Source of the DNA: Gekko japonicus
Taxonomy: Eukaryota
Assembly: GCF_001447785.1 (NCBI RefSeq)
Contig: NW_015167655.1
Coordinates: 13,602-77,601, forward strand
Direction of reading: 5' to 3'
DNA: 64,000 nucleotides
Shown here one piece after another: positions 23,401 to 48,383 of this stretch. Position numbers and translations under genes: made by a program. The number at the start of each line of letters is the position of its first letter. Positions within the stretch are counted from its first letter, which is position 1. The notes below the pieces were generated by a model. That model was given only the letters and a program-made list of their open reading frames with translations. It searched no databases and was not told the origin of the DNA.

Positions 23401-26400
23401 GTAATCATCTGGGCGGGATGTGCGCGCGCGTCTGTTTGTGCATGCAGGTGTGTTTGTTACACTAAGATATATAGCTCTGTGCATGGTAATCTGAATGACC
23501 ACAACAAGGACTGTTGCATTCTGCAACCTTCTTATATTATAGTCTACTTAAGCGAATGTCCATGATTTTTTCATCTTTGGCATCATTCTGCAGTGTCCTG
23601 AGGAGAGCTGTTCAAAGTACCCGGATCTTCCCCCTCTGCAACAGATCTTATCCAGAAACCCCTGTGGCTTTAGAGATCTCAGCAGGAAAAAGCAGGAATT
23701 TGCTGCACTTTTACATACATCAGACAGTGTGGTGTAGTGGTTAGGATCTGGGGGGGGGACATCAGTGCAACTCCCCATCCTGACATGAGGCTTGCAGTAG
23801 AACTTTGGGCCGGTTGTTCTCCCTCAGCCTGACCCACATTGCAGGATTGGTGGGGAAGGGGGAACCGTGTACACCACACAGAGCTCCTTGAAGGGAGAGT
23901 AGGATTAAAAGCGCAGGTTTGGAGGCTCTGAAGGATTTCTGCTACTGGAAGAGATTTCCGTCCATGGCGTGGGATTTCATTCCCTCTTCAGCCCGAAATG
24001 CTGCTCCTGGTGGACAGGGGACCCCCAGGGACAGCTGCGGCGGGGTGGGGGGGGTGAGGTGGATGTCCACAGTCCGAGGTGGGAATCAGCAAAAATGCCC
24101 CCCCCCCCCGAAATCCTGTGTGGGATTCAACCTAATCAGTGTGAGAGCATCTGCTTCGCATGCTTAAGGTCCTGGGTTCAATTGTCAGCATCTCAAGGCT
24201 AGGGAAGACCTCTGCATAATATTTGGGAGAGCTGCTGTCAGGCAAAGCAGACACTACAAAGCTCAGTGTAGAAGTGGAGCTGACTTGGTAGAAGGCAATT
24301 TCACTTGCTCGGGAATTGTGTGTACGACATTGCCAGAGGGAACGATACTAAACTAGATGAACCAACGGCCTGGCTCTGTAGGCGGCTTCTGTCTGACTCT
24401 GAAATGGTTGCATCCCTGGAGGTTGCAGGGAGGGGTCGTGGCTCACTGGCAGAGCATCTGCTTTGCACGCAGAAGGCCTCAGGTTCAGTCCCTGGCGTCT
24501 CCAGTTAAAATAGACCCAGGCAGTAGGTGATGTGGACGACCTCTGCTTGAGACCTTGGAGAGCCACTGCCAGTCTGACTAGACAGTGCTGACTTTGATGG
24601 ACTGATGGTCTCATTCACCCAAAGAGTAATTAACATGTGAAACTCACTGCCGCAGGAGGTGGTGGTGTGGCTACAAGCATAGGGGATTGGATAAATGTAT
24701 GAAACAGGGGTGTAGTGGTTAAGTGTGCGGACTCTAATCTGGGAGAACTGGGTTTGATTCCCCCATTCCTCCACTTGCACCTGCTGNNNNNNNNNNNNNN
24801 NNNNNNNNNNNNNNNNNNNNNNNNNNNNNNNNNNNNNNNNNNNNNNNNNNNNNNNNNNNNNNNNNNNNNNNNNNNNNNNNNNNNNNNNNNNNNNNNNNNN
24901 NNNNNNNNNNNNNNNNNNNNNNNNNNNNNNNNNNNNNNNNNNNNNNNNNNNNNNNNNNNNNNNNNNNNNNNNNNNNNNNNNNNNNNNNNNNNNNNNNNNN
25001 NNNNNNNNNNNNNNNNNNNNNNNNNNNNNNNNNNNNNNNNNNNNNNNNNNNNNNNNNNNNNNNNNNNNNNNNNNNNNNNNNNNNNNNNNNNNNNNNNNNN
25101 NNNNNNNNNNNNNNNNNNNNNNNNNNNNNNNNNNNNNNNNNNNNNNNNNNNNNNNNNNNNNNNNNNNNNNNNNNNNNNNNNNNNNNNNNNNNNNNNNNNN
25201 NNNNNNNNNNNNNNNNNNNNNNNNNNNNNNNNNNNNNNNNNNNNNNNNNNNNNNNNNNNNNNNNNNNNNNNNNNNNNNNNNNNNNNNNNNNNNNNNNNNN
25301 NNNNNNNNNNNNNNNNNNNNNNNNNNNNNNNNNNNNNNNNNNNNNNNNNNNNNNNNNNNNNNNNNNNATTGTCTACTCAGACTGGCAGCAGCTCTCCAGG
25401 ACCTCAGGCAGAAGTTTTCCCCATCACCTACTGCCTGGTTCTTTTTAACTGGAGATGGCAGGGATTGAACCTGGGACTTTCTGCATGCAAAGCAGAGTCC
25501 CTTCCACTGAGCCACAGCCCCTCCATCAGTGGCTATTACCCACAACGTATAGACAGAACACTGTGTATGAGGCAATGATGCTCTGTATTCTTGGTGTTTG
25601 GGGGGCAACAGTGGGAGGGCTTCTGGAGTTCTGGCCCCACTGGTGGCCCCTGGATTTTGACAGCTGTGTGACACAGAGTGTTGGACTGGGGGGGCCACTG
25701 GCCTGATTCAGCACAGCTTCTCTGACACCCTTATGATTCAGTACACGGCAGCTTTGTGTGTGTTCACGTGAGGTTGTCCCATTGCCCCAAACACAGGATC
25801 CTGGAACTCTCTATTAAACGGCCCCGCAAAGGCACTAATGACTGCCCTTAGGGCCCATTTCAAATATCTTCCGTGCTTTCTGGACGTTATCTTGGAAAAG
25901 GGAGATTATTCTGTAAAAGGGCAGGCTTGGGGCAGGGGTTCTGGGAGAGCCCAGGGGGGTGCCAAGTGGCCCTGTGACCCACTCCTCCTCTGCCTGCCCA
26001 GGATGATGGAGCTGATCTCTCAGAAGCAGCGGGAGCGAGAGGAGCGGGAGAAACGGGAGAGCATCGAGCGGGAGAAGCAGCGCCGGAAGCAGGGCCAGGA
26101 GCTCTCCCTCATCCGCCAGAAGCTGCAGGAGGACGAGATGAAGAAGCTGGCGGAGGACAGGCGCAAGGAGAAGATGGAGGAGAAGCTGGCCAAGTGAGAG
26201 CCCTGCGGGGAGGGGGAGGGAACGGCTTAGCCCCCGAGGCGGGGAGGCCGCGTCTACGGGCTGGACGGCAGGAAGCCCAGCTGTGGGTTTAGGCAAAGGA
26301 ATGGGCCGCCGGGGCTCAGGGGAAGAGCAACTGCTTTGCATGCAGAAAGTCCCAGGTTCGGTCCCTGGCGTCTCCGGTGGAAAAGGATCAGGTCATGGGT

Positions 26401-32100: not shown

Positions 32101-35100
32101 CTGAGGACAGCAATGGGAGGTTGAGACCGGCACCCTCTCTTTCTCTTCTGTGGCCCCCATGTACTCCCCCCTGCCCTGCCGTGCAGGACAGCGGTGTGGC
32201 CGACAGAAGAGAAACTGTAATTGCCATTTCGATGGGTTGCATTTTTTGTCTTATTGATGGTTTTCTGTGTCCACTTTTAACTATAAATTGTAATTTTTAA
32301 TGTTTTATCATGACTGAATCACCCAAAGACTTTCCTGCCTCCCCCCCTCCCACTTCTGCCCACTGATCTCCACACAGTGCTGCTCCTGGAGGACACGGGA
32401 TGCTGAGGAATGATACCCGAAAAAGGGGTGTCTGTGCAGGGAAGGGGGAATTGGCGGCAGTTGCCAGTTTAGTCTGGGTCCAGCCCAAGCTCTTCTGCAA
32501 AACCCCGGCTTGGTGTGTGCCCCCCCACCCCGGTGGATGTTTGCTGGCTTAAGACATGACCTCTTTTGCAGTGGCCCCTGCCTTTCCCTCTCCAAGGCTG
32601 GTTGCCGGACACACTTGGAGTTTACAGTTTGAGGTACCAGATCAAAGCTTCTTTGGTTACTTAGGCGTCAGGTGGATTGGAGGAACTGTTTCTCCCTTCC
32701 CTCCCTCCTGATTTATCCCTTTCAGTTCTGCACCAGTGACAGTATTGGTGCCCTGTTAGTTTGGCTGAACGTTCTATTGGTGTCATTAGCAGAGGCCTTT
32801 CTGCTGCTGTCGCATTGATTTATGTTTCCGCATCATTCTCGGAAGCAGCATTGAGAGCTGTCCGAGTATAAATTTTGAAGAGAAGATTACTCTTATTGCC
32901 CTAGCAAAATCTTTCAGGTGCCAAAGGGGAGCCTGGGCAAAATAAATGCCTGGACGCTTCTCCTCGAATCCCTTTTACCAGATATTTTGACCTCTCCACA
33001 CCTTTCATCTTGTTCTATTTTACATTCACTTCAGTTTTACCATAGAGTTTACCATAGAGTTTCTGGCACATGAAGCTGCCTTGTACCGAATCAGACCACC
33101 AGTCCATCAAAGTCAGTACTGTCTACTCAGACTGGCAGCAACTCTCCAGGGTCTCAGGCGGAGGACTTTCACACATTACCTGCTGCCAGATTTTTTTTCA
33201 CTGAAGATCCTGGGGATTGAACCTGGGACCTTCTGCATGCCAAGCAGATGCTCCCTGCTTTACTGCAGAGCTGGTGGCAGAAGCCTTGCGCTGATGACCT
33301 GTCCGCATATTGATTCAGTGCGCGAGGAGGGAGACCAAGCATGAGCCTCTCCCTCCACCTCCGTGCCGTTGCCTCATCTGCATGGCGCACATGTGCAGAG
33401 CAGATAGGCCTGCACACACTCCCCTCCCCATGATCGGCAACATTTGGAAAGCGGGCGTCACCGATCACAGGGAGGGACATACGCACAGGCACTCCTTCCG
33501 CACATTTGCACCATGCAGACAGTCGGCCAGTTGCATGGAGTTGGGGCCAGCATCTCTGTTAAGAGAGCTGCGGTGGTTTTTGTAGGTGCTGAAGGCCCTC
33601 CCCCCTTTCCCTCTGGCACACCAAGCCTCCTCAGTCGGCCCGGCCCCTCTTCTTTGACAGGTGAGGCTGCTGGACGGGACGTCGCTCACGCAGACCTTCA
33701 GAGCCAAAGAGCAGCTGGCGGCCGTCCGGCTCTACGTGGAGCTGAAAAAGGACGGTGGCGAGGAGCCCTTCATCCTCCTCACGAGCTTCCCTCGGCGCGT
33801 CTTCACCGAGGAAGACATGGAGAAGCCCTTGCAGGAGCTGGGTGAGTTGGGGACAGCTGGGGGGTGGCTTACAGGGGGGCGGAGGGGGCGGTTCCCCTCT
33901 CCCACTGCCCCAGGTGGGACTTGGGCCTCAGTAGGGCTTGACTAGAGCGAGAGGCTCAGCTTCTCCCTAGTGGCAGCCCTGCCTGCTGTAACTGCGCGTT
34001 AGAAGTCTGGCCCTCCCCCCTCGAGTTCTCCCTTTCGCGTATCCCGACTGTGGGATTCTTCCCTGCTCTAAACCACCCGGACTCATTTCCCCACGGCCTT
34101 TTCTCTGCATCCCAGCAGACTGCGGATCCCCTCCAGGAAAAGGGGGCTTGTTTCTCCCTGTTTTGTAGAGTAAATACGAGAGGTGGATGGACTACAGAAA
34201 TTCTTCAGTTTCCAGTGGCTCTGCCATGTTTGATACTTGCTATGAAAATTGGTGGGGTTGGGGATAGGGATGTGCATTCGGCTTTCCCAAACGAAAAAAA
34301 ATACCGAATAAATACCTGCTGTGGCCGGGGGGGGGGGGGGGGGGCGGGGAAGCAGGGCAGGCATGGAAGCATGCCTGGGCTCCCTGCTTTCCCTTCTCTA
34401 GCTACCCTGGGTCAGCTGACTGGCGGAGAGTGAAATTGACAAAGAAAGCCAAACCGGCTTCCAGAAGGAAAGAAGGCATTTTTAAATGCCTCCCTTCCCT
34501 CCTGTCCGGTATATCAGACCTGAATATATATTTGGGAATACCGAATATTTCCCCAGTCCTGATACTTTACCGGTATTGGACTGGGGATATTCGGCATTTA
34601 CCAATATTTTTTTGGGTCTGATATACCCGAAGCCGAAAAATACCGATTATTATTTTTTTTGCACACTCCTAGTTGGGGAGGTTGCTTGAAGGCTGACATC
34701 TTTGTTATGTCTGAGTAGTGAGGCACAGATGTACGACACTTGACTTAGCTCTGGCAACTCCAGAAGCTGGATATGAGTCTCTTATTGAATTGGTGGAGCC
34801 CACAACCATAAGAGTTGGAAGGGGGCATCTAGGCCATACAGGAAATCCAAAGCTATCGCTTCCCTGGCAGACTGGTTGGCCCAGACTTTGCTTGAAGATA
34901 TCCAGCCCTCCCCACAAATATAATGTAAGGAGTAGCATGGTGTAGCGGTTAAATTGTCGGACTAGGTTCTGGGATATCCAGGGTCAAATCCCCACTCTAC
35001 CGTGGAAGCTTCGCTGGGTGGTTTAAATACACTCTTGGGGGTTTTGCACACATAGGGAAGTTACCCACTGAGTCAAGTTATTGCTGTCTAACCCTGTGAG

Positions 35101-35484
35101 CTCTGCCCTTCTAGAAAGCGGGGTAGCCCAGTTTCCGGAGGCGAATCCTAATCTTTGTCGCCTCTGTTTCTGTGTTTAACATCAGACTCTGTCGTGTCAC
35201 GTAACACAAAGTTGAGCGAATACCGACATAACCTGATTTTTGACATAAACTGCAGCTCACTGTGCGTCAGTGAAAACCAGCTGTTTGGCTGGAATCTGGG
35301 AACCCTAAGCTGCTGGCGTGGGTTCTGGATTCCATGTTGGTGAATGAATGACTAGTCTTTGTCGTTGTCCTCACCCCACTCCCAAGGTGTTCTCGCTAAG
35401 CTCTCCCTTCAACTTCTTCCTTTCCTCGCCGCAGGTCTGGTGCCTTCAGCTGTGCTGATCGTTGCCAAGAAAGGGAACAGCTGA
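20428..35484 (+). CDS. UBXN1: UBX domain-containing protein 1 (UBA - coiled coil - UBX; p97/VCP adaptor), spliced CDS, 303 aa
   Basis: Join 20428-20483, 20901-20954, 21040-21161, 23322-23400, 26002-26193, 27700-27751, 30426-30551 (or the identical 29647-29772), 33661-33841, 35435-35484 = 912 nt. All introns are GT-AG with matching phases. The protein [14 protein letters not shown]...[16 protein letters not shown] is collinear with recalled human UBXN1. Confidence 0.96.
20901..20954 (+). CDS. UBXN1: UBXN1 coding exon 2
   Basis: [18 protein letters not shown]; ctttcAG| ... TG|gtgagt. Confidence 0.95.
21040..21161 (+). CDS. UBXN1: UBXN1 coding exon 3
   Basis: [22 protein letters not shown]...; best phase-1 donor is CAG|gtcaga at 21161, with an alternative AAG|gtggaa at 21152. 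Confidence 0.85.
23322..23400 (+). CDS. UBXN1: UBXN1 coding exon 4
   Basis: [26 protein letters not shown]; ctccgtAG| ... AG|gtaatc. Confidence 0.9.
24432..24617 (+). mobile_element. Second tRNA-derived SINE family (Squam2-like); copies at ~5232-5437, 18850-19030, 25368-25522, 26310-26510, 33068-33252, 36400-36595, 61490-61690
   Basis: Family pattern: head like gctcagtggcagagcatctgctttgcatgcagaaggtcccaggttca (tRNA-like) and body like ctggagagctgctgccagtctgagtagacaatactga; individual copies carry substitutions. Confidence 0.8.
24787..25367. other. Assembly gap (N)
   Basis: N run. Confidence 1.
26002..26193 (+). CDS. UBXN1: UBXN1 coding exon 5 (coiled coil)
   Basis: [64 protein letters not shown]. 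Confidence 0.95.
27700..27751 (+). CDS. UBXN1: UBXN1 coding exon 6
   Basis: [17 protein letters not shown]; ccccAG| ... AAG|gtgggt. Confidence 0.95.
29647..29772 (+). CDS. UBXN1: UBXN1 coding exon 7, copy A (duplicated)
   Basis: [42 protein letters not shown]; 126 nt, identical to 30426-30551, both splice sites intact. Confidence 0.6.
30426..30551 (+). CDS. UBXN1: UBXN1 coding exon 7, copy B
   Basis: Same 42-aa exon; ctccAG| ... CAG|gtaatg. Confidence 0.8.
33661..33841 (+). CDS. UBXN1: UBXN1 coding exon 8 (UBX domain)
   Basis: [28 protein letters not shown]...[23 protein letters not shown], including the R...FPR p97-binding signature. Confidence 0.96.
34265..34671. mobile_element. DNA transposon remnant with subterminal TACCGA repeats
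   Basis: TIR tagggatgtgca / tgcacactccta and repeated ataccga/tcggc motifs near both ends. Confidence 0.55.
35435..35484 (+). CDS. UBXN1: UBXN1 last coding exon
   Basis: [16 protein letters not shown]; acceptor cctcgccgcAG. Confidence 0.94.
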
Positions 35485-35806
35485 AAAGGGACCCCCCCCT
35501 TTGCACGTCTCAACCTCGGTCTCAGCCCTCCTTCCTTTGCCGCTGCCGGAGGTGAACCTCTCCTTCCCTCGTGCTCCACCTCTGGGGGGCTACCTCACAG
35601 CCCCCCACCACCACCACCTTGGTTTTCCAACCGGCTCTGCCCGCAAAGACTCCAAGAGCAGCGCTATCATTCGGGCTGGGATTCAGAATCGACGACGCTT
35701 GGAGGCGGGAGGGGTGGGAGGGGGGGTTGGGGCCCCTCCCGGCCTCTTGGTGCGGAGGGGCAGCGTTGCAACTTGGCTGCCCTGGCGGGGGGGAGGACCA
35801 ACTATG

Positions 35807-35812: not shown

Positions 35813-38800
35813 AAAACCTCTTTCTCTTCTGGTTCTCGTTCTGGCCGTTCTTTACCTGCAGAGAGGCAGAGCGAGAGTTGGGACTCGGCCAGGTCCTTTT
35901 GAGATAGTGGAATTTGTGCTCATGTGGGCTTGTCCAGGGTGTACGCATCTTTTTGCACCGCAAAAAAGAAAATCTTGGTTCTGCCTGTTGGGGCGGTGGT
36001 TCACGTACTGCTACGAAGATGTCAGCGTGGTCATGCTGCTGTGGTAACAAGTCCATACCTATGATTGCTCTCTTGAAGTATCTGAAGGGCTGTCCCTTTT
36101 AGAGGAGGGCAGGGAGCTGCTCCTGCTGGCAGCAGAGGACAGGACTCCCAATAATGGGTTTAAATTAAGAGCGGGAAGGTACCGGCTGGATATTAGGGAA
36201 AACTTTCTGACAGTAAGACTTGTGCAGCAGTGGAATGGGCTGCCTAGGGGAGGTGGTGAGCTCCCCCTCTCTGGCAGTCTTGAAGCAGCGGCTGGACAAG
36301 CACTTGAAGCAGCGGCTGGGATGCTCTAGGGCTGATCCTGCATTGAGCAGGGGGATGGACTAGATGGCCTCTGTGTGGCCCCTTCCAGCTCTGGGATCCT
36401 ATGAAGCTGCCTTATCTTGAACCAGACAGTTTGTCCATGAAGGGCAGTCCTGTCTACTCCCGACTGGCCGCCGCTCTCCAGGGTCTCAGGCAGAGGTCTT
36501 TCACATCACCTCCTACCTGCTCCTTGAACTGGAGATGTCGGGGATTGAACCCGAGACCTTCATGCCAAGCAGATGTTCTACCACTGAGCCATGCCCCCCC
36601 CCCCCCAGCACCCTGGCTCTCATGGTAAGGGAGGGTGTGTGTGAGTCATCTGGTCTGCTCAGAGTCTTGTGTACGGCTTCCTGCCAAGTGATGAGGGGTG
36701 AAATATTTGGCAGAAGCTTGTACAGAGCCAGTTTGGTGTAGTGGTTAAGAGCGGCGGACTGTAATCTGGAGAACTGGGTTTGATTCCCCACGCCTCCTCC
36801 ACATGCAGCCAGCTGGGTGACCTTGGGCCAGTCACAAGTTCTCTCAGAGCTCTCTCGGCCCCACCTACCTCACAGGGCGTCTCTTGTGGGGAGGGGAAGG
36901 GAAGGAGGCTCTGAGTGAAGGGCAGGATATAAATCCAACCCTTCTTCCGACATGCCCTCAGGGGGGGATCCTGCTGCAGTCCCTCCCACACATGGGCGAC
37001 ATACAGAGGGGGGAGAGCACTTCCATCCCCACCAGAGGGACCGATGACTGGATTGCTGTACTGTGGCTCAGCCCTGGCCCTGGGTGGCTCAGGCTAGCCC
37101 AGTCTCAGTTAGTACTTGGGCGGGGAGGCCACCCAGGAAGTCCGGGATTGCTACGCCTTGGCAAACCACCTCTGAACGTCTCTCGCCTTGAGAACATCAT
37201 GCGGCCGCTGCGACGACTTGACAGCGTTGTCCTCCGCCACCCACCAATTCAGTGTGACTGACGTCGAACCCTGGGGACAGCGGATTAAAACAGCTGCGAC
37301 TACTTGACAGCGTTGTCCTCCGCCACCAACCGATTCAGTGTGACCAGTGTTCCCTCTAAGCTGAGTTAGCGTGAGCTAGCTCAGTTTTTTAGCCTCTGGC
37401 TCACACATTTTTGTCTTCGCTCAGGAAGGATGACTCCAGAGCAACCTAATTTATGCAGCTGCCAAACTGCTCGCTTTGATGCCAGTTGCTCACAAAGTAG
37501 AATTTTTGCTCACAAGACTCCACAGCTTAGAGGGAGCATTGAGTGTGACTGGCGTCGAACCCTGGGGACAGCGGATTAAAACAGGAGGGCACCTCACCTG
37601 CCTTTTCATGACACACTGCTGCTTTTCTGGGTAGGAGGGAAGGGCGAGGCTGTCTCCCCCCCCCTTTTGTGTGGCTGAAGAAATTGGAACTGGTTTCCTA
37701 AACGTCTCTAAAACACGAGACTTTAGCTTTGAGAGGGAGTTGCCGTGTTTCTGCTCCTGCTCAGGGTCATCCCACAGAACCGCAGCGGTGGCTGATTCAA
37801 GGGCAGGCAATGTTACTTCGCCACACGCTGCCTAATCTATGGAATTCACTGCTCAGGATGGACTCCAACTTACATTGCTCTAAAACTGGGGTAGTTTCAT
37901 TTAGGATCGGGCTATCACTTACTGGGCCTGAGCACGCAAAAGCGACCAGGGCTCTGCACATTTTTCACAATCAGAGGGCCAAACTATTAGAATTCAGAGC
38001 AAGAGGTCAGCAGAGAGCTAGTATAATATGACCCGTTTGCACAAATGATATATATATTACTAGTCAACACTGGTTGTTGTGAGTCCTATATTAGGCAATG
38101 GCATACATGATAACACACAGATAATGAATACACACAGGAGCACCCTAGTTGGTCATTTCCCTACCTGTAAAGTACTTTCAAGAAGCATTTCAGGCCCATA
38201 AAAAGTCTTTGCCTGCCCTTCCCCCTCCACAGCTGGTTATTTTAACACTGCAGACCCCTAAAATAGACCATCCACCTTCAGAGGCAATCTACCACTAAAT
38301 ATTATTGGGGGTGGGGGGAGAAGAGGGCTATTGCTTTTCTGCCCTACAGCATCATGGGAAAACTTCATGCTGGAAGACATGGGCCTGATCCACAGGGCTG
38401 CTCCTATTAAGCCACATAGTTCCAGAATATTTTAAGAGGAGGAAACAAAACAGAACTTGTTACAGGCACAGAGTCAATGGGGTGTGGGAAAAGACATCAT
38501 CCAAAAATAAGAGCTCCCCCTTGTCTCAGTTTGTAGCCTCTGATATCACATGCTGTTTATGCCTCCTAACTTAAGTCTGGTTTATTTTGAACGAAGTTGG
38601 GTTTTTTTGGTACAAGATAGTTTTTTATTATTCAGAAGAACACAGACTCTGTACTCTTCAGGTGGGACAAAGCAGCCTAACATTGGCTGTATGAAAACAG
38701 AAAAGAAAAACAGTCAATTGAAAGTGAGAGGAAGATGCCAGTCGCGCTCCTTCTGTTCAGGTACGCTGCCACCATCAGCACCGACCTCCGGAGTTTCTTC

Positions 38801-38892
38801 TTCCTAACTTCTTACTGTTCTCCTGTAGGTGGCATAAAGCAGTGCTGAACAGAGAGACGGGTGGGTGACTCCTGCCAGCAGGGTGATGCCGC

Positions 38893-38960
38893 TCATTCCC
38901 CTTTCCGCTTCTGTTTCCCAACTGGGTCAGCAATCACTACAGCACCCCAGGCGACAAGAC
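38893..38960 (-). CDS. DMAC1: Distal membrane-arm assembly component 1 (TMEM261), coding exon 2
   Basis: (S)LVAWGAVVIADPVGKQKRKGE* matches recalled human IATWGIVVMADPKGKAYRVV. Phase 1 fits exon 1. Acceptor gttgttCTAG. AATAAA on - strand at 38624-38629 and 38581-38586. Confidence 0.88.
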
Positions 38961-38964
38961 CTAG

Positions 38965-39234
38965 AACAACAACAACAGGAGATTGGATTTATACCCCCAC
39001 CCTTCACTACCCAAAGGAGTCTCAAGAGTGACTTACAATCTCCTTCCCCTTCCCCTCCCCACAACAGGCACCCTGTGAGGTAGGTGAGGCTGAGAGAGCT
39101 CTCTCGAGAACAGCTCTGAGAAAACCTGTGACTGACCCAAGGTCACACCAGCAGCTGCGTGTGGAGGAGTGCGGAATCAAACCCAGTTTTCCCAGATTAG
39201 AGTCCGTGCACTCCTAACCGCTGCACCAAACTGG
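38965..39234 (-). mobile_element. tRNA-derived squamate SINE (Squam3-like); other copies at ~36725-36945, 47728-48002, 53405-53764, 54420-54713, 60335-60624, 62402-62638
   Basis: Head ccagtttggtgcagcggttaggag...gggtttgattcc (A/B boxes), body ...cctacctcacagggtg..., tail tataaatccaatctc(ctt/gtt)n. Confidence 0.85.
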
Positions 39235-39589
39235 CTAGGAGAACAGAGGGAGGATGTCAGCAGCGGAGAAGTACATTTGTTTAATGGCCTTCACCCCACC
39301 TCTCCATCCAAAGACCACTAAGGTAGCATAATTTTTAAAATGAACGTTACATAGTAAAACAAGGCACCCTGACCCTGCTGGCCCCATCTCAGAAGTTAAA
39401 CAGAGTTGGCCCTGGTCAGTATTTGGACGGGAGACCACCAAGGAATACCAGGGTTGTTACGCGGAGGCAGGCAATGGCAGACCACTGCGCAATGTCTCCT
39501 GCCTTGAAAACCCCATGGGGTCGCCCTAAATCAGCTGTCATTTGACGGCACACACACAAAAAAGTAAAACAAGGTGCCTCTCTCATAAG

Positions 39590-39986
39590 CAGGGGTCATT
39601 TCCTGCAGGAGCACACAGGAGCGGAGCTCCGGCAGTAAAGAGCCCAGGGGGTGGGCACATGCAACAAGCCCCACCCCCTGCTCCCAGCAGCCCTCCGTCA
39701 GGGCCAGAAGCAGCCAGGTAAGTTGCAGAGGCCCTCCCCCCGGCCCAAAACAGTCCAGTGGCACCTTTAAGACCAAGTTTTATTCAGGTACAAGCTCTCC
39801 CTCCTCTCTCTGAGGACAGATCTGCACGTCCCCCCCCCAGCTAGCAATCCAGTGGAGCCTGAGTGGCGGGTGTTGCCTTCTGATACACTTCCGGTGATGT
39901 CAGGGGGTGTGGCATATGCAAATAAGTCATGCTAATGAGTTATGCTAATGAGCTCCTGCACCTCTTTTTCTACAAAATGACCCCTG
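39590..39986. mobile_element. Same hAT MITE family as 37-333, opposite orientation
   Basis: TIR CAGGGGTCATTT and 8-bp TSD ctcataag. Confidence 0.85.
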
Positions 39987-40438: not shown

Positions 40439-41330
40439 TGCTGGTGACCTTCCAACAGATGGGGCCACTGTTGCTGCTCAGAATTGTGGCCACGCTTGCT
40501 ATTTCCCTGAAGGGGCTCACTGGCAAAGCACCAGCTCTGCAAGCAGGGGGCCCTAGGTGTAACCCCACATCAAGGATCTCAAGCAGCAGATGCTGGCGAA
40601 GACGCTGGAGAGCTGCTGCCATCATTCAGAGGAAAGAATATGGAGTTTGAGGGATGAATGGACTCACTCATTAGAAGACAGCCTTATATTGAAGCAGTGG
40701 GAAAAATAAAATAAGCTCACCAAAGAAAACAGTTCTATTTAACACACTTGGTTGTACTTTTTATAATATTTACAATGCAAATTTCTTATGTCACACAAAA
40801 ATCATCCTTATGCAAAGTAATGTCTTTGGGAAGACATTAGAGAGATCATCAGCAAATTCCATTATTTAACAACAGATACTGACCGGGGGGGGGAGAGAAT
40901 TAGTATTTTGCTAGGGTAATCTGCCACTTCAACAGAGCTCTTAATGATCATGCTGGTGACCTTCCAACAGATGGGGCCACTGTTGCAATTGTGGCCACGC
41001 TCTCTATTTCCCTGAAGGGGCTCACTGGAGGAGGCCCTAGGTGTAACCCCACATCAAGGATCTCCAGCAGCAGATGCTGGGGAAGACGCTGGAGAGCTGC
41101 TGCCGTCATTCAGAGGAAAGAATACTGAGTTTGCGGGACGAATGGACTCACTCATTAGAAGACAGCCTTATATTGAAGCAGTGGGAAAAATAAAATAATC
41201 TCACCAAAGAAAATAGTTCTATTTAACACACTTGGTTGTACTTTTTATAATATTTATAATGCAAATTTCTTATGTCACACAAAAATCATCCTTATGCAAA
41301 GTAATGTCTTTGGGAAGACATTAGAGAGAT
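40439..41330. repeat. Direct duplication of ~400 bp (40439-40846 / 40951-41330) in the DMAC1 intron
   Basis: Both units begin tgctggtgaccttccaacagatggggcc and end gaagacattagagagat; several substitutions and small indels. Confidence 0.9.
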
Positions 41331-41929
41331 GTTGCGTTGATCCACATTATTGTCATTCCTGCAGTGCTCCGTCAAGAGATTGGTGATGAGCACCCAACAG
41401 AGAGATAGAGTTGATAAAGATATCCAAAACTGCTTGTTAATCCTAGGAAAGTGTCTTCTCTTTATCTCTTGTATTCCTTGGATTCACATTTTTAAACGAA
41501 GGAGTGATAAATGCTATTTAGGAGCTTGAAAAACGAAGACTTTTTAGTCTGCTTTTCCACTTCATAGCTCTATCAAGACGACTTGAAGAGAAAACATTCC
41601 AAAACAGTGTCAAGAATATTTGCATCAAGATTTTGTATTGTACTCACATCATTATCTACTGGCTTTGCCTATGTTTATGGCATGTACTTTACATAAGGAT
41701 GATTGTTGTGTAACATAAGAAATTTGCATTATAAAAAGTACAACCAAGGGTGTTAAAGTCATAGAACAGTGGTTTTCTTCGGTGAGCTTATTTTATTTTT
41801 CCCCATTGTATTCACACCAAAGCCTGTCTTGTTTTTGTTATATTAGAAGCAGGGCAGTCCAGTTCTGAGCTGAGTCCTTTAATTAGGATCACACAGGAAG
41901 GAAGGAAGCCCCTCACCTTGATACAGCTG

Positions 41930-43886: not shown

Positions 43887-44082
43887 TGATGGCGAAAGTC
43901 ATCTGGGTGATGTGCCACATATTGGGGGGGATCCCCTGCTGCATGACCCTGCGAGGGCCCAAGTACACCCAGATGCCGGAGCCGATCAGCGCCAGCCCGC
44001 TCAGAAGGCGGCAGCCCCAGCAGGACCCGAAAAGGGGCTTGTGGGGGGCTGGAGGAGCAACCTCTGTGGAGTTGGACGACAT
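43887..44082 (-). CDS. DMAC1: Distal membrane-arm assembly component 1 (TMEM261), coding exon 1
   Basis: MSSNSTEVAPPAPHKPLFGSCWGCRLLSGLALIGSGIWVYLGPRRVMQQGIPPNMWHITQMTFAI versus recalled human ...CWSCRVLSGLGLMGAGGYVY...PPSPWTITQM. Donor CA|GTAAGT. Total 264 nt = 87 aa. Confidence 0.9.
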
Positions 44083-47285: not shown

Positions 47286-48383
47286 AGGTTAATTAATCGT
47301 GGAAAACAGGCGTGTGCATAGTTTCAGGTGGATCACCGGATTGGTCTGCATTAGAAGAGCAAGATTCGAGTCTAACAACACCGTAAAGACCCACAAGATT
47401 CCCAGGGTATCTGCTTTTAAGAGTCAAAGCTCCCTTCCATCAGACACGAGTAGGAATTGAGACCCCTGAGCCCTTCCATCTCAGTCAGAAGGCGGGAGAG
47501 GTGCTGCCAAGAAGGGAGTCCAGATGCAAAAGTGCAATGCAAAATATAGATCCAGGTGGGCACCTTTAAGACCAACCAAGCTGTATTCAAGGTATGAGCT
47601 CTTGTGTGCATGCACACTGTTTGTACCTGAAGTGTGTGTGAACACGGAAGCTCATACCTTGAATAAAACTTTGTTGGTCTTAAAGGAGCCATGGGACTCA
47701 AACTTTGTTCTAATGCAAAATATAATCAGAAGAAGAGATTGGATTTATACCCCGCCCTTCACTACCCGAAGGAGTCTCAGAGCGGCTTACAATCTCCTTT
47801 CCCTTCCCCTCTCCACAACAGACACCCTGTGAGGTAGGTGGGGCTGAGAGAGCTCTTTGAGAACTGCCCTTGAGAGAACAGCTCTGAGAGAACTTGTGAG
47901 TGACCCAAGGTCACACCAGCAGCTGCGAGCGGAGGAATGGGAAATCAAACCCAGTTCTCCCAGATTAAGAGTCTGGGCTCCTAACCACTACACCAAACTG
48001 GCTTAATTAGAGTACGGGAGAAACGCTTACGGGTAGGAAGTGCTTAAGAATAGGAAATGCTGTTCTTGTATGCCCTCACATGACCAAGAAACAGAACCAG
48101 GGCTTGGCTGGAAAGCACCCAGTGCAGCAGCTTTGCCAGAATGTTGCCAGTCTGAGTCTCTCCGGTGTCTGCCCAGGAGACCTCCTGCGAACACCGCATA
48201 AGCTGCCTTGAAGCAGAAATGCAAACACGACAAAACAGAGAACCCCAGAAGGCGGCTTTGCAGGTGGAGGGGGACCGGCCTGCAAGGCAAAAACAGTACT
48301 GATTTGGGGCAGCAGACTGGTGCCGCTTCTACTCTGCCAGCATCCCTGAACATCCTCCTTCATGCCCTGACCTGGAAGACCAA

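What the first reader, a model, noticed from the sequence alone, without database searches (positions are those of the whole stretch)
38893..39270. A SINE inserted exactly at the DMAC1 3' splice site, creating two competing acceptors
Seen: on the coding (-) strand a textbook acceptor, GCTGAC (branch point) ATCCTCCCTCTGTTCTCCTAG| at 39235, is followed by the head of a ~270-bp tRNA-SINE rather than by exon 2. The SINE tail (AATCTCCTGTTGTTGTTGTT) ends in a second CTAG (38961-38964) directly abutting the real exon 2. CTAG is duplicated like a target-site duplication. Inference: the SINE landed on the acceptor and its simple-repeat tail became the new polypyrimidine tract; other copies here have mainly purine-rich (+ strand GAA/GAG-type) tails, while this one has (GTT)n on its own strand. 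Using the old, stronger-looking acceptor would exonise the SINE and give ...MTFAI-TSLVQRLGVHGL*, losing the conserved WGxVVxADP segment of a complex I assembly factor. As the last exon, that isoform would likely escape NMD. This could be a natural splice-rescue event or a dosage switch.
Basis: partly seen in the sequence, partly recalled or inferred. Interest (0 to 1): 0.75.

Follow-up and report, generated by a model that had tools for sequence, protein, structure and literature searches.

The report
Gecko SINE beside DMAC1 splice site
A common gecko jumping-gene copy sits 18 bases in front of the last exon of a mitochondrial assembly gene and probably now supplies part of that exon's splicing signal, but the RNA examined shows the normal message, so it looks like a tolerated insertion rather than a switch.

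Summary
The anatomy is real. A sense-oriented Squam3B3-type SINE (39236-38979) separates a strong branch point and pyrimidine tract from DMAC1 exon 2 in a gecko, and runs X1 and X2 support both junctions. RNA argues against a major switch. The main X1 contig splices 43887 to 38960, and splicing there gives the annotated 87-aa protein. A SINE-allele count caps SINE-containing transcripts at about 7% (X24) and 29% (X21) of exon-2 depth. Junction reads could not be counted, so a minor isoform is not excluded. Other copies' tails are pyrimidine-rich on their own strand (a strand mix-up). The upstream AG is also the SINE's own head (consensus GAGAGCCAG), so CTAG need not be a target duplication. 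A 6-bp TCTCCT repeat fits too, and then the (GTT)4CTAG acceptor would be the original one. Under either history the old branch point is stranded 297 nt upstream, so the SINE's 3' end probably supplies the working one. No SINE-free orthologue could be obtained. The closest known case is canine merle. Verdict: a tolerated insertion and a tidy curiosity.

The parts
43887..44082 (-). DMAC1/TMEM261 exon 1 coding part (65 codons + 1 nt, phase 1)
   Evidence: Pfam DMAC1_Dmo2 E 6.9e-22; 100% to P0001
43881..43886 (-). GTAAGT donor of the single coding intron
   Evidence: the X1 loose end behind 38960 equals window 43887-43916
39256..39260 (-). CTGAC branch-point motif (A at 39257), now stranded 297 nt from the used AG with 23 AGs in between
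   Evidence: A at -23 from 39235; 23 AGs; that script placed the A one base off, corrected here
39237..39255 (-). Stranded pyrimidine tract (17 of 18 Y in -20..-3); ends in TCTCCT (39242-39237), repeated at 38982-38977
39235..39236 (-). Upstream AG: host acceptor copy and/or the SINE's own first two bases; use not seen in RNA
   Evidence: invariant in 6 of 6 copies; consensus head GAGAGCCAG
38979..39236 (-). Squam3B3-type tRNA-derived SINE, sense to the gene, 258 nt, lacking the first 3 nt and about 17 nt of the B3 segment; 8 letters not found in 5 other window copies
39211..39241 (-). Possible hairpin pairing the upstream acceptor (39241-39233) with the SINE head (39219-39211); weak support
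   Evidence: MFE in short windows only, z -0.63; the used AG is also predicted paired
38983..38992 (-). Candidate working branch point inside the SINE 3' end (six A's at -23 to -32; a TnA at -29; no yTnAy)
   Evidence: 90% of human branch points lie 19-37 nt upstream (PMC4315302); inference, not mapped
38965..38978 (-). CT(GTT)4 tract: working pyrimidine tract (14 of 18 Y, 11 T in -20..-3); origin unresolved (tail, duplicated target or original intron)
38961..38964 (-). CTAG, the acceptor used (AG|GT)
   Evidence: X1 contig of 901 nt, depth 250.9, spliced here; no indel at this junction in 8 of 9 aligned homologues, the ninth (P0004) apparently an intron read-through
38893..38960 (-). Exon 2 coding part: second half of the second hydrophobic helix and the C-terminus
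38250..38892 (-). 3' UTR; AATAAA at 38629 and 38586; the X1 contig runs about 230 nt past 38481 (end near 38250 estimated from contig length)

Best explanation
An L2-mobilised Squam3B3 SINE inserted in sense orientation within the 3' splice signal of the last DMAC1 intron and split it. The strong branch point and tract stayed upstream, capped by an AG that coincides with the SINE head; a (GTT)4CTAG|GT acceptor sits at exon 2. SHOWN: both junctions exist in independent runs; the assembled transcript splices to 38960 and encodes the conserved 87-aa protein; SINE-containing and intron-retaining transcripts are at most a minority. INFERRED: the working branch point now lies in the SINE's last 15-25 nt, because only 18 nt separate SINE body and exon and the old motif is 297 nt and 23 AGs away. 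The exon-adjacent site probably wins through terminal-exon definition and AG|G context (recalled splicing rules), and the allele persisted because the gene kept working. On the insertion history I put about 60% on duplication of the host acceptor (CTAG or a longer target, AG microhomology at the head, GTT tract seeded from the target's TGTT) and about 40% on insertion inside the tract (first rival).
For: Spliced contig 43887->38960 at depth 250.9; every bin 38481-38960 is exactly 250.9, so no other laid contig enters exon 2 from the SINE (X1). Unspliced contig at depth 2 = 0.8% of it. Zero depth at 39241-39360 in both raw RNA runs against exon-2 depth 21 and 28.6. Window allele at 39031 in at most 6 of 25 (X21) and 2 of 9 (X24) reads, i.e. 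at most 0.29 and 0.07 of exon-2 depth; other copies also carry that allele, so these are ceilings. The annotated 87-aa protein equals the 38960 product. The second helix scores KD 1.83 (orthologues 1.76-2.3) against 0.69 for the SINE form. L2-clade TSDs peak at 3-5 bp and 5' ends join by microhomology or extra bases (PMC4245944 passages).
Against: Raw-read junction counts were not obtained: only 24 of 452 loose-end rows were shown and none for X21/X24 at 38960 or 39234. The five other sites tested give looser ceilings, up to above 1. Contigs drop rare forms. Only 3 RNA runs of unknown tissue from 2 studies were laid, and about 3% and 12% of the raw runs were read. The new site has no yTnAy motif and a weaker tract than the old one, so why it wins is not shown. 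No branch point was mapped and no orthologous intron was seen.
Confidence: 0.72

Rival explanations
1. History reversed: the (GTT)4CTAG acceptor is the original. The SINE landed 16-18 nt upstream inside the pyrimidine tract (TSD TCTCCT or CTGTT), and the upstream 'old' AG is new, made by the SINE's own head. The functional outcome is the same as in the best explanation, and the SINE then supplies only the branch point.
For: The 6-bp TCTCCT abuts the head AG and overlaps the SINE 3' end exactly, with no extra bases. The AG is part of the consensus head, and 2 other copies also begin at AG. GTT is absent from 6 of 6 other tails. The implied original branch distances, -37 or -29, lie within the 19-37 range. 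The X2 DNA contig ends at 38978, the first base outside the SINE body, where a SINE-free CTGTT-type allele would branch.
Against: It needs a nearly tail-less copy, whereas the others have pyrimidine tails. -37 is at the edge of the range and -23 is near the median of 25. All pieces of the downstream tract (TCTCCT, TGTT, TGTTCT, CTAG) occur within the 15 nt upstream, as expected if it was copied from the target. The X2 contig end may be a heterozygous base or assembler pruning.
Confidence: 0.4
2. Regulated or leaky two-acceptor switch: a meaningful share of transcripts uses 39235, exonises the SINE, escapes NMD (last exon; stop at 39197) and makes a 77-aa protein lacking the second membrane helix, tuning complex I assembly, perhaps through (GTT)n length as in merle.
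For: The upstream site has the better motif. The X21 ceiling of 0.29 leaves room. The SINE form loses the helix. Merle shows this logic (PMC6091007, PMC7349775 passages). In human, 11.7% of SINEs within 100 bp of exons have chimeric ESTs (PMC3088655 passage).
Against: No contig or protein with this form among those shown. X24 ceiling 0.07. No GTT length change is listed among the 9 indel rows (table 4). A four-unit repeat is short for frequent slippage (inference).
Confidence: 0.08
3. The upstream acceptor is silenced mainly by RNA structure: the SINE head pairs with it (9-bp stem over the AG) or with the branch-point region.
For: MFE hairpin over the AG in 70-120-nt windows; an alternative stem covers the CTGAC region in the 141-nt fold, z -3.11.
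Against: z -0.63 for the 71-nt window. The used AG and the modelled SINE-free AG are predicted at least as paired in the 70- and 120-nt windows. Results change with window size, and the copy's two private C's give no gain over copy c48003's head (-21.0 vs -21.1).
Confidence: 0.15
4. The old branch point at 39257 is still used, with the spliceosome passing 23 AGs to reach 38961.
For: It is the only yTnAy motif near either acceptor; distal branch points exist.
Against: Distal branch points normally have no intervening AG (recalled); here a well-placed CTAG follows at 23 nt.
Confidence: 0.03
5. Assembly artefact: the SINE is not really at this place.
For: X2 shows no depth at 39241-39360 and no piece crossing from 38978 into the SINE body.
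Against: X2 carries the exon/(GTT)4 junction, and X1 carries flank plus 31 nt of SINE head with 1 difference in 150. The tool warns that holes prove nothing.
Confidence: 0.03

Closest known systems
Canine merle: SINEC_Cf at the intron 10/exon 11 boundary of PMEL (PMC6091007, PMC7349775; passages read)
   Same: [quoted passage not shown]
   Different: Merle is antisense with a long oligo(dT), a 15-bp TSD and an in-frame 52-aa insert, and it segregates with a phenotype. Here the SINE is sense, the repeat is 12 nt and next to the exon, the duplication is 4-6 bp, exonisation would truncate the protein, and no use of the second site was seen.
Squam3B3 SINE of Gekkonidae (PMC7983390; parts 1-2 of 4, passages, supplements 1 and 3 read)
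   Same: Head, B3-specific segment and 3' end match the G. japonicus B3 consensus by eye; about 180,000 copies reported in that genome.
   Different: About 17-nt deletion; GTT instead of CTT after the body; the paper's main text has no hit for 'exon' or 'splic'.
Alu-supplied branch points and tracts in exonised antisense Alus (PMC4315302 passage) and SINEs in the 100-bp depleted zone near exons (PMC3088655 passages)
   Same: A SINE supplies intronic splice signals; SINEs near acceptors are selected against, so survivors are those tolerated.
   Different: Those signals serve new Alu exons from antisense copies; here they would serve the old host exon from a sense copy.
Earlier scan note e1-9872132 (SINE 12 nt before the last CYP27B1 exon in a camelid; unchecked AI note)
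   Same: SINE at the last acceptor, probably supplying the branch point, gene normally spliced.
   Different: Different gene, lineage and SINE; not checked here.

Membership tests
Squam3 SINE, subfamily B3 | tRNA-derived head starting GAGAGCCAG | tested here: met
   Matches from AGCCAG onward, first 3 nt missing (compared by eye, consensus rows assigned by their order in the PDF)
Squam3 SINE, subfamily B3 | B3-specific extra segment and length about 271 nt | tested here: met
   Segment present with about 17 nt deleted; 258 nt here, 264-271 nt in three window copies (Table 1)
Squam3 SINE, subfamily B3 | L2-derived 3' end | tested here: inconclusive
   The 3' part matches the consensus rows and window copies; not compared with an L2 sequence
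Squam3 SINE, subfamily B3 | (CTT)n tail in G. japonicus | tested here: not met
   CT(GTT)4 follows the body. The paper lists (GTT)n for another gecko, and the tract may be host sequence, so I file the body, not the tail, as B3
DMAC1/TMEM261 | DMAC1_Dmo2 domain with CxxC and two hydrophobic helices | tested here: met
   two helices and CX2C per bioRxiv 10.1101/2023.06.12.544600 passages
Merle-type SINE splice switch | [quoted passage not shown] | tested here: met
Merle-type SINE splice switch | Target-site duplication that contains the original acceptor | tested here: inconclusive
   CTAG, TCTCCT and CTGTT all fit; no orthologous intron obtained
Merle-type SINE splice switch | Substantial use of the SINE-including acceptor | tested here: inconclusive
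   Not seen; ceilings 0.07 and 0.29 of exon-2 depth; junction reads not counted
Merle-type SINE splice switch | Repeat-length or presence/absence polymorphism controlling the ratio | tested here: inconclusive
   No GTT length change listed in 4 runs; the X2 contig break at 38978 is unexplained
TE-supplied branch point of a host exon | Lariat branch mapped inside the element | not testable with these tools
   Inferred from distance only

The most novel reading that the evidence does not exclude
The insertion or its GTT tract still varies among geckos (the X2 contig breaks exactly at the SINE boundary), and in some tissue a sizeable share of DMAC1 transcripts uses the upstream AG to make an NMD-escaping, one-helix DMAC1: a natural merle-like dial on a complex I assembly factor. 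More broadly, sense copies of a 180,000-copy SINE with pyrimidine tails could land in, and re-supply, acceptors as a recurrent route.
Probability: 0.07. Interest if true: 0.65.

Novelty: new member of a known kind. Interest (0 to 1): 0.28.

Why it matters
As it stands it is a clear example of a SINE surviving in the zone where insertions are most strongly purged, with a textbook-looking acceptor apparently passed over for a weaker-looking one. That makes it a handy minigene substrate for 3' splice-site choice at a terminal exon, and a caution that motif strength does not predict use. It would matter more if the upstream site were used in some tissue, or if many Squam3B copies proved to supply branch points to host exons. 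I found no report of this locus or of Squam3 affecting splicing in searches (open-access library only; listings seen, not all hits read).

Tried and rejected
Orthologous intron: no genome is held for the window. A metagenome scan gave 2 loci from 192 candidate stretches; both were 13-14-residue matches without the rest of the gene, which I judged chance. A search for called ORFs reading across the acceptor on the opposite strand found 0 of 1 candidates. Cluster look-ups gave accessions but no DNA. The laid stretch (38481-39680) did not include exon 1, so splices appear only as loose ends, most of them hidden. Hairpin masking was tested and is inconclusive. Selection on the copy's two private C's to strengthen the hairpin: no energy gain. 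MaxEntScan could not be run, and the window has too few recognisable exons for a local matrix (Pfam hits in 2 of 278 open frames of 75 codons or more). One search used a wrong start for exon 1 (fixed); one search placed the branch A one base off (one search is right). The X2 hole at 39241-39360 was not used as evidence. Earlier-finding look-ups by place, sequence and the first word set returned nothing. Supplements 2, 4 and 5 of PMC7983390 were not read and may bear on tail and TSD frequencies.

Full report
Gene and species. The minus-strand frame 44082-43887 is exon 1 of DMAC1/TMEM261 (Pfam DMAC1_Dmo2, E 6.9e-22). Its 65 residues match P0001, labelled Gekko japonicus TMEM261, at 100%. Joined in phase 1 to 38960 it gives 87 aa identical to P0001. 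Eight of 9 homologues align across this junction without an indel. The ninth, P0004, diverges there and looks like an intron read-through. So 38960 is the ancestral start of exon 2. DMAC1 is described as needed for the distal membrane arm of complex I, and its yeast homologue has two predicted membrane helices (bioRxiv 10.1101/2023.06.12.544600, passages; the original 2016 study was not read).

The element. Bases 39236-38979 hit 12 other places in the window, 5 of them over 200 nt or more, with 81.5-89.6% identity to the five aligned. Head, B3 segment and 3' part match by eye the G. japonicus Squam3B3 consensus in supplement 1 of PMC7983390. [quoted passage not shown] This copy lacks the first 3 nt and about 17 internal nt, and has 8 letters not found in the 5 other copies. 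It is therefore not among the newest insertions (inference).

Observation check. The upstream site is textbook: yTnAy with its A at -23, 17 of 18 pyrimidines, then CTAG. Such sites are 13 of 9,558 AGs, or 0.14% of positions, with filters chosen after the fact. It is therefore very likely the ancestral branch point and tract. The downstream site has 14 of 18 pyrimidines, no yTnAy within 80 nt, and AG|GT. Both junctions are supported outside the assembly: DNA contig X2 covers 38481-38978, and an X1 contig covers 39204-39353 with 1 difference. Two points fail. First, the other copies' tails are CTT/CCT on their own strand in 6 of 6 cases, and in the 5 counted they are more pyrimidine-rich than this one; the purine-rich impression came from reading the opposite strand. 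Second, the upstream AG is the SINE's own head, invariant in 6 of 6 aligned copies and present in every consensus row (51 labels).

Insertion history. Four repeats span the insertion: CTAG (4 bp), TCTCCT (6), TGTTCT (6) and CTGTT (5). L2-clade duplications peak at 3-5 bp, and 5' ends join through microhomology or extra bases (PMC4245944, passages), so several readings are legitimate. In the reverse reading the SINE landed 16-18 nt before the exon, (GTT)4CTAG is original, and the upstream AG is SINE-made; the distances would be -37 or -29. In human, 90% of branch points lie at 19-37 nt with a median of 25 (PMC4315302, passage). I favour the first at about 60:40, because every piece of the downstream tract occurs in the 15 nt upstream and the other copies have real tails. 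These odds are judgement, not computation. No orthologous intron could be fetched. One loose thread: the X2 contig ends at 38978, the first base outside the SINE body, and no continuation was laid. A heterozygous base, a SINE-free allele or assembler pruning could each cause this.

Which acceptor is used. Four of 24 listed runs were laid on 38481-39680. In X1 one 901-nt contig at depth 250.9 covers 38481-38960 and continues with 184 letters whose first 30 equal window 43887-43916: the splice is 43887->38960. All twelve bins up to 38960 read exactly 250.9, so no other laid contig joins exon 2 from the SINE side. The only X1 piece shown across the upstream site is unspliced, at depth 2 (0.8%). 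In raw RNA runs X21 and X24 (one study; about 3% and 12% of each run read), depth next to the junction is 21 and 28.6, and zero over 39241-39360. The SINE body is swamped by reads from other copies. At 39031, however, only 6 of 25 and 2 of 9 reads carry the window's letter, giving ceilings of 0.29 and 0.07 (pooled 0.16) for SINE-containing transcripts, provided these animals share that letter. This was the tightest of 6 sites; the others range from 0.10 to above 1 and say less. Junction reads could not be counted, because 428 of 452 loose-end rows were hidden, including any at 38960 or 39234 for the raw runs. None of the 10 protein hits to exon 1 has the SINE C-terminus, which is a weak negative.

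What the alternative would make. Use of 39235 gives 77 aa with a stop at 39197. The best C-terminal hydropathy window falls from 1.83 (orthologues 1.76-2.3) to 0.69, so the second helix is lost. With no later junction, NMD escape is plausible (established knowledge, not tested). Strong use would be a loss of function, which fits survival of an allele that avoids it (inference).

Mechanism. Shown: the split signal, and use of the exon-adjacent AG. Inferred: the branch point now lies in the SINE's last bases (six A's at -23 to -32, a TnA at -29), since the old one is 297 nt away behind 23 AGs. This holds under either history and is a firmer claim than 'the tail became the tract'. Why the weaker-looking site wins is not shown. 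AG|G context and definition of the terminal exon are my lead explanation (recalled rules). A stem pairing the upstream acceptor with the SINE head appears in short-window folds. It is no better than shuffles for the 71-nt window (z -0.63), changes with window size, and in the 70- and 120-nt windows the used AG is predicted at least as paired, so it stays a side hypothesis.

Comparison. It works like 'cryptic' merle, where a SINE at the last intron-exon boundary of PMEL leaves two acceptors and the original one is used (PMC6091007, PMC7349775, passages). It differs in orientation, repeat length, duplication length and frame, and the defining switch behaviour was not seen, so I do not file it as a merle-type switch. 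SINEs are depleted within 100 bp of exons, more so at acceptors (PMC3088655, passages; PMC6326789, passages), and Alu-borne branch points are known for exonised antisense copies. Searches (listings) showed no paper on this locus; subscription literature is not covered.

Verdict. A real but apparently tolerated SINE insertion at a splice acceptor; a new member of a known kind; interest 0.28. The switch reading keeps about 7-8% and would deserve about 0.65 if true.

Noticed in passing
window 33658-33942 and about 35437-35486 (+): Last exons of a UBX-domain gene (Pfam UBX E 5.4e-18; UBXN1-like by recall), convergent with DMAC1 and ending about 3 kb from its 3' UTR.
   Followed up: partly
window about 39590-39985: MITE-like element in the DMAC1 intron with inverted ends CAGGGGTCATTT and an 8-bp CTTATGAG duplication, hAT-like by recall; very high copy in runs.
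   Followed up: partly
window 40439-40846 and 40951-41330: About 400-bp direct duplication at 90% identity inside the intron, with a third partial inverted copy at 41685-41803.
   Followed up: no
window 24432-24503 (+) and 25450-25521 (-): Two tRNA-Ala(TGC) genes in opposite orientation on either side of an assembly gap at 24787-25367.
   Followed up: no
window 38978 in run X2: The DNA contig ends at the first base outside the SINE body and no continuation or upstream-flank contig was laid; heterozygosity, a SINE-free allele or assembler pruning.
   Followed up: partly
other Squam3 copies at 48003, 60623, 62404, 54714: Short flanking duplications or tail-like flank ends (about 8 bp with one mismatch; TAATT with extra bases; TCT; CCTC), suggesting a liking for pyrimidine-rich targets; four cases only, judged by eye.
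   Followed up: partly
proteins P0005 and P0008: Two DMAC1-like paralogues labelled Heteronotia binoei, with the same longest-contig size, suggesting a local duplication in that gecko.
   Followed up: no
window 38498-38810: 3' UTR differences from the window in the laid runs (38498, 38528, 38658, 38660, 38694 in all four; a 6-nt insertion after 38544 in X1).
   Followed up: no
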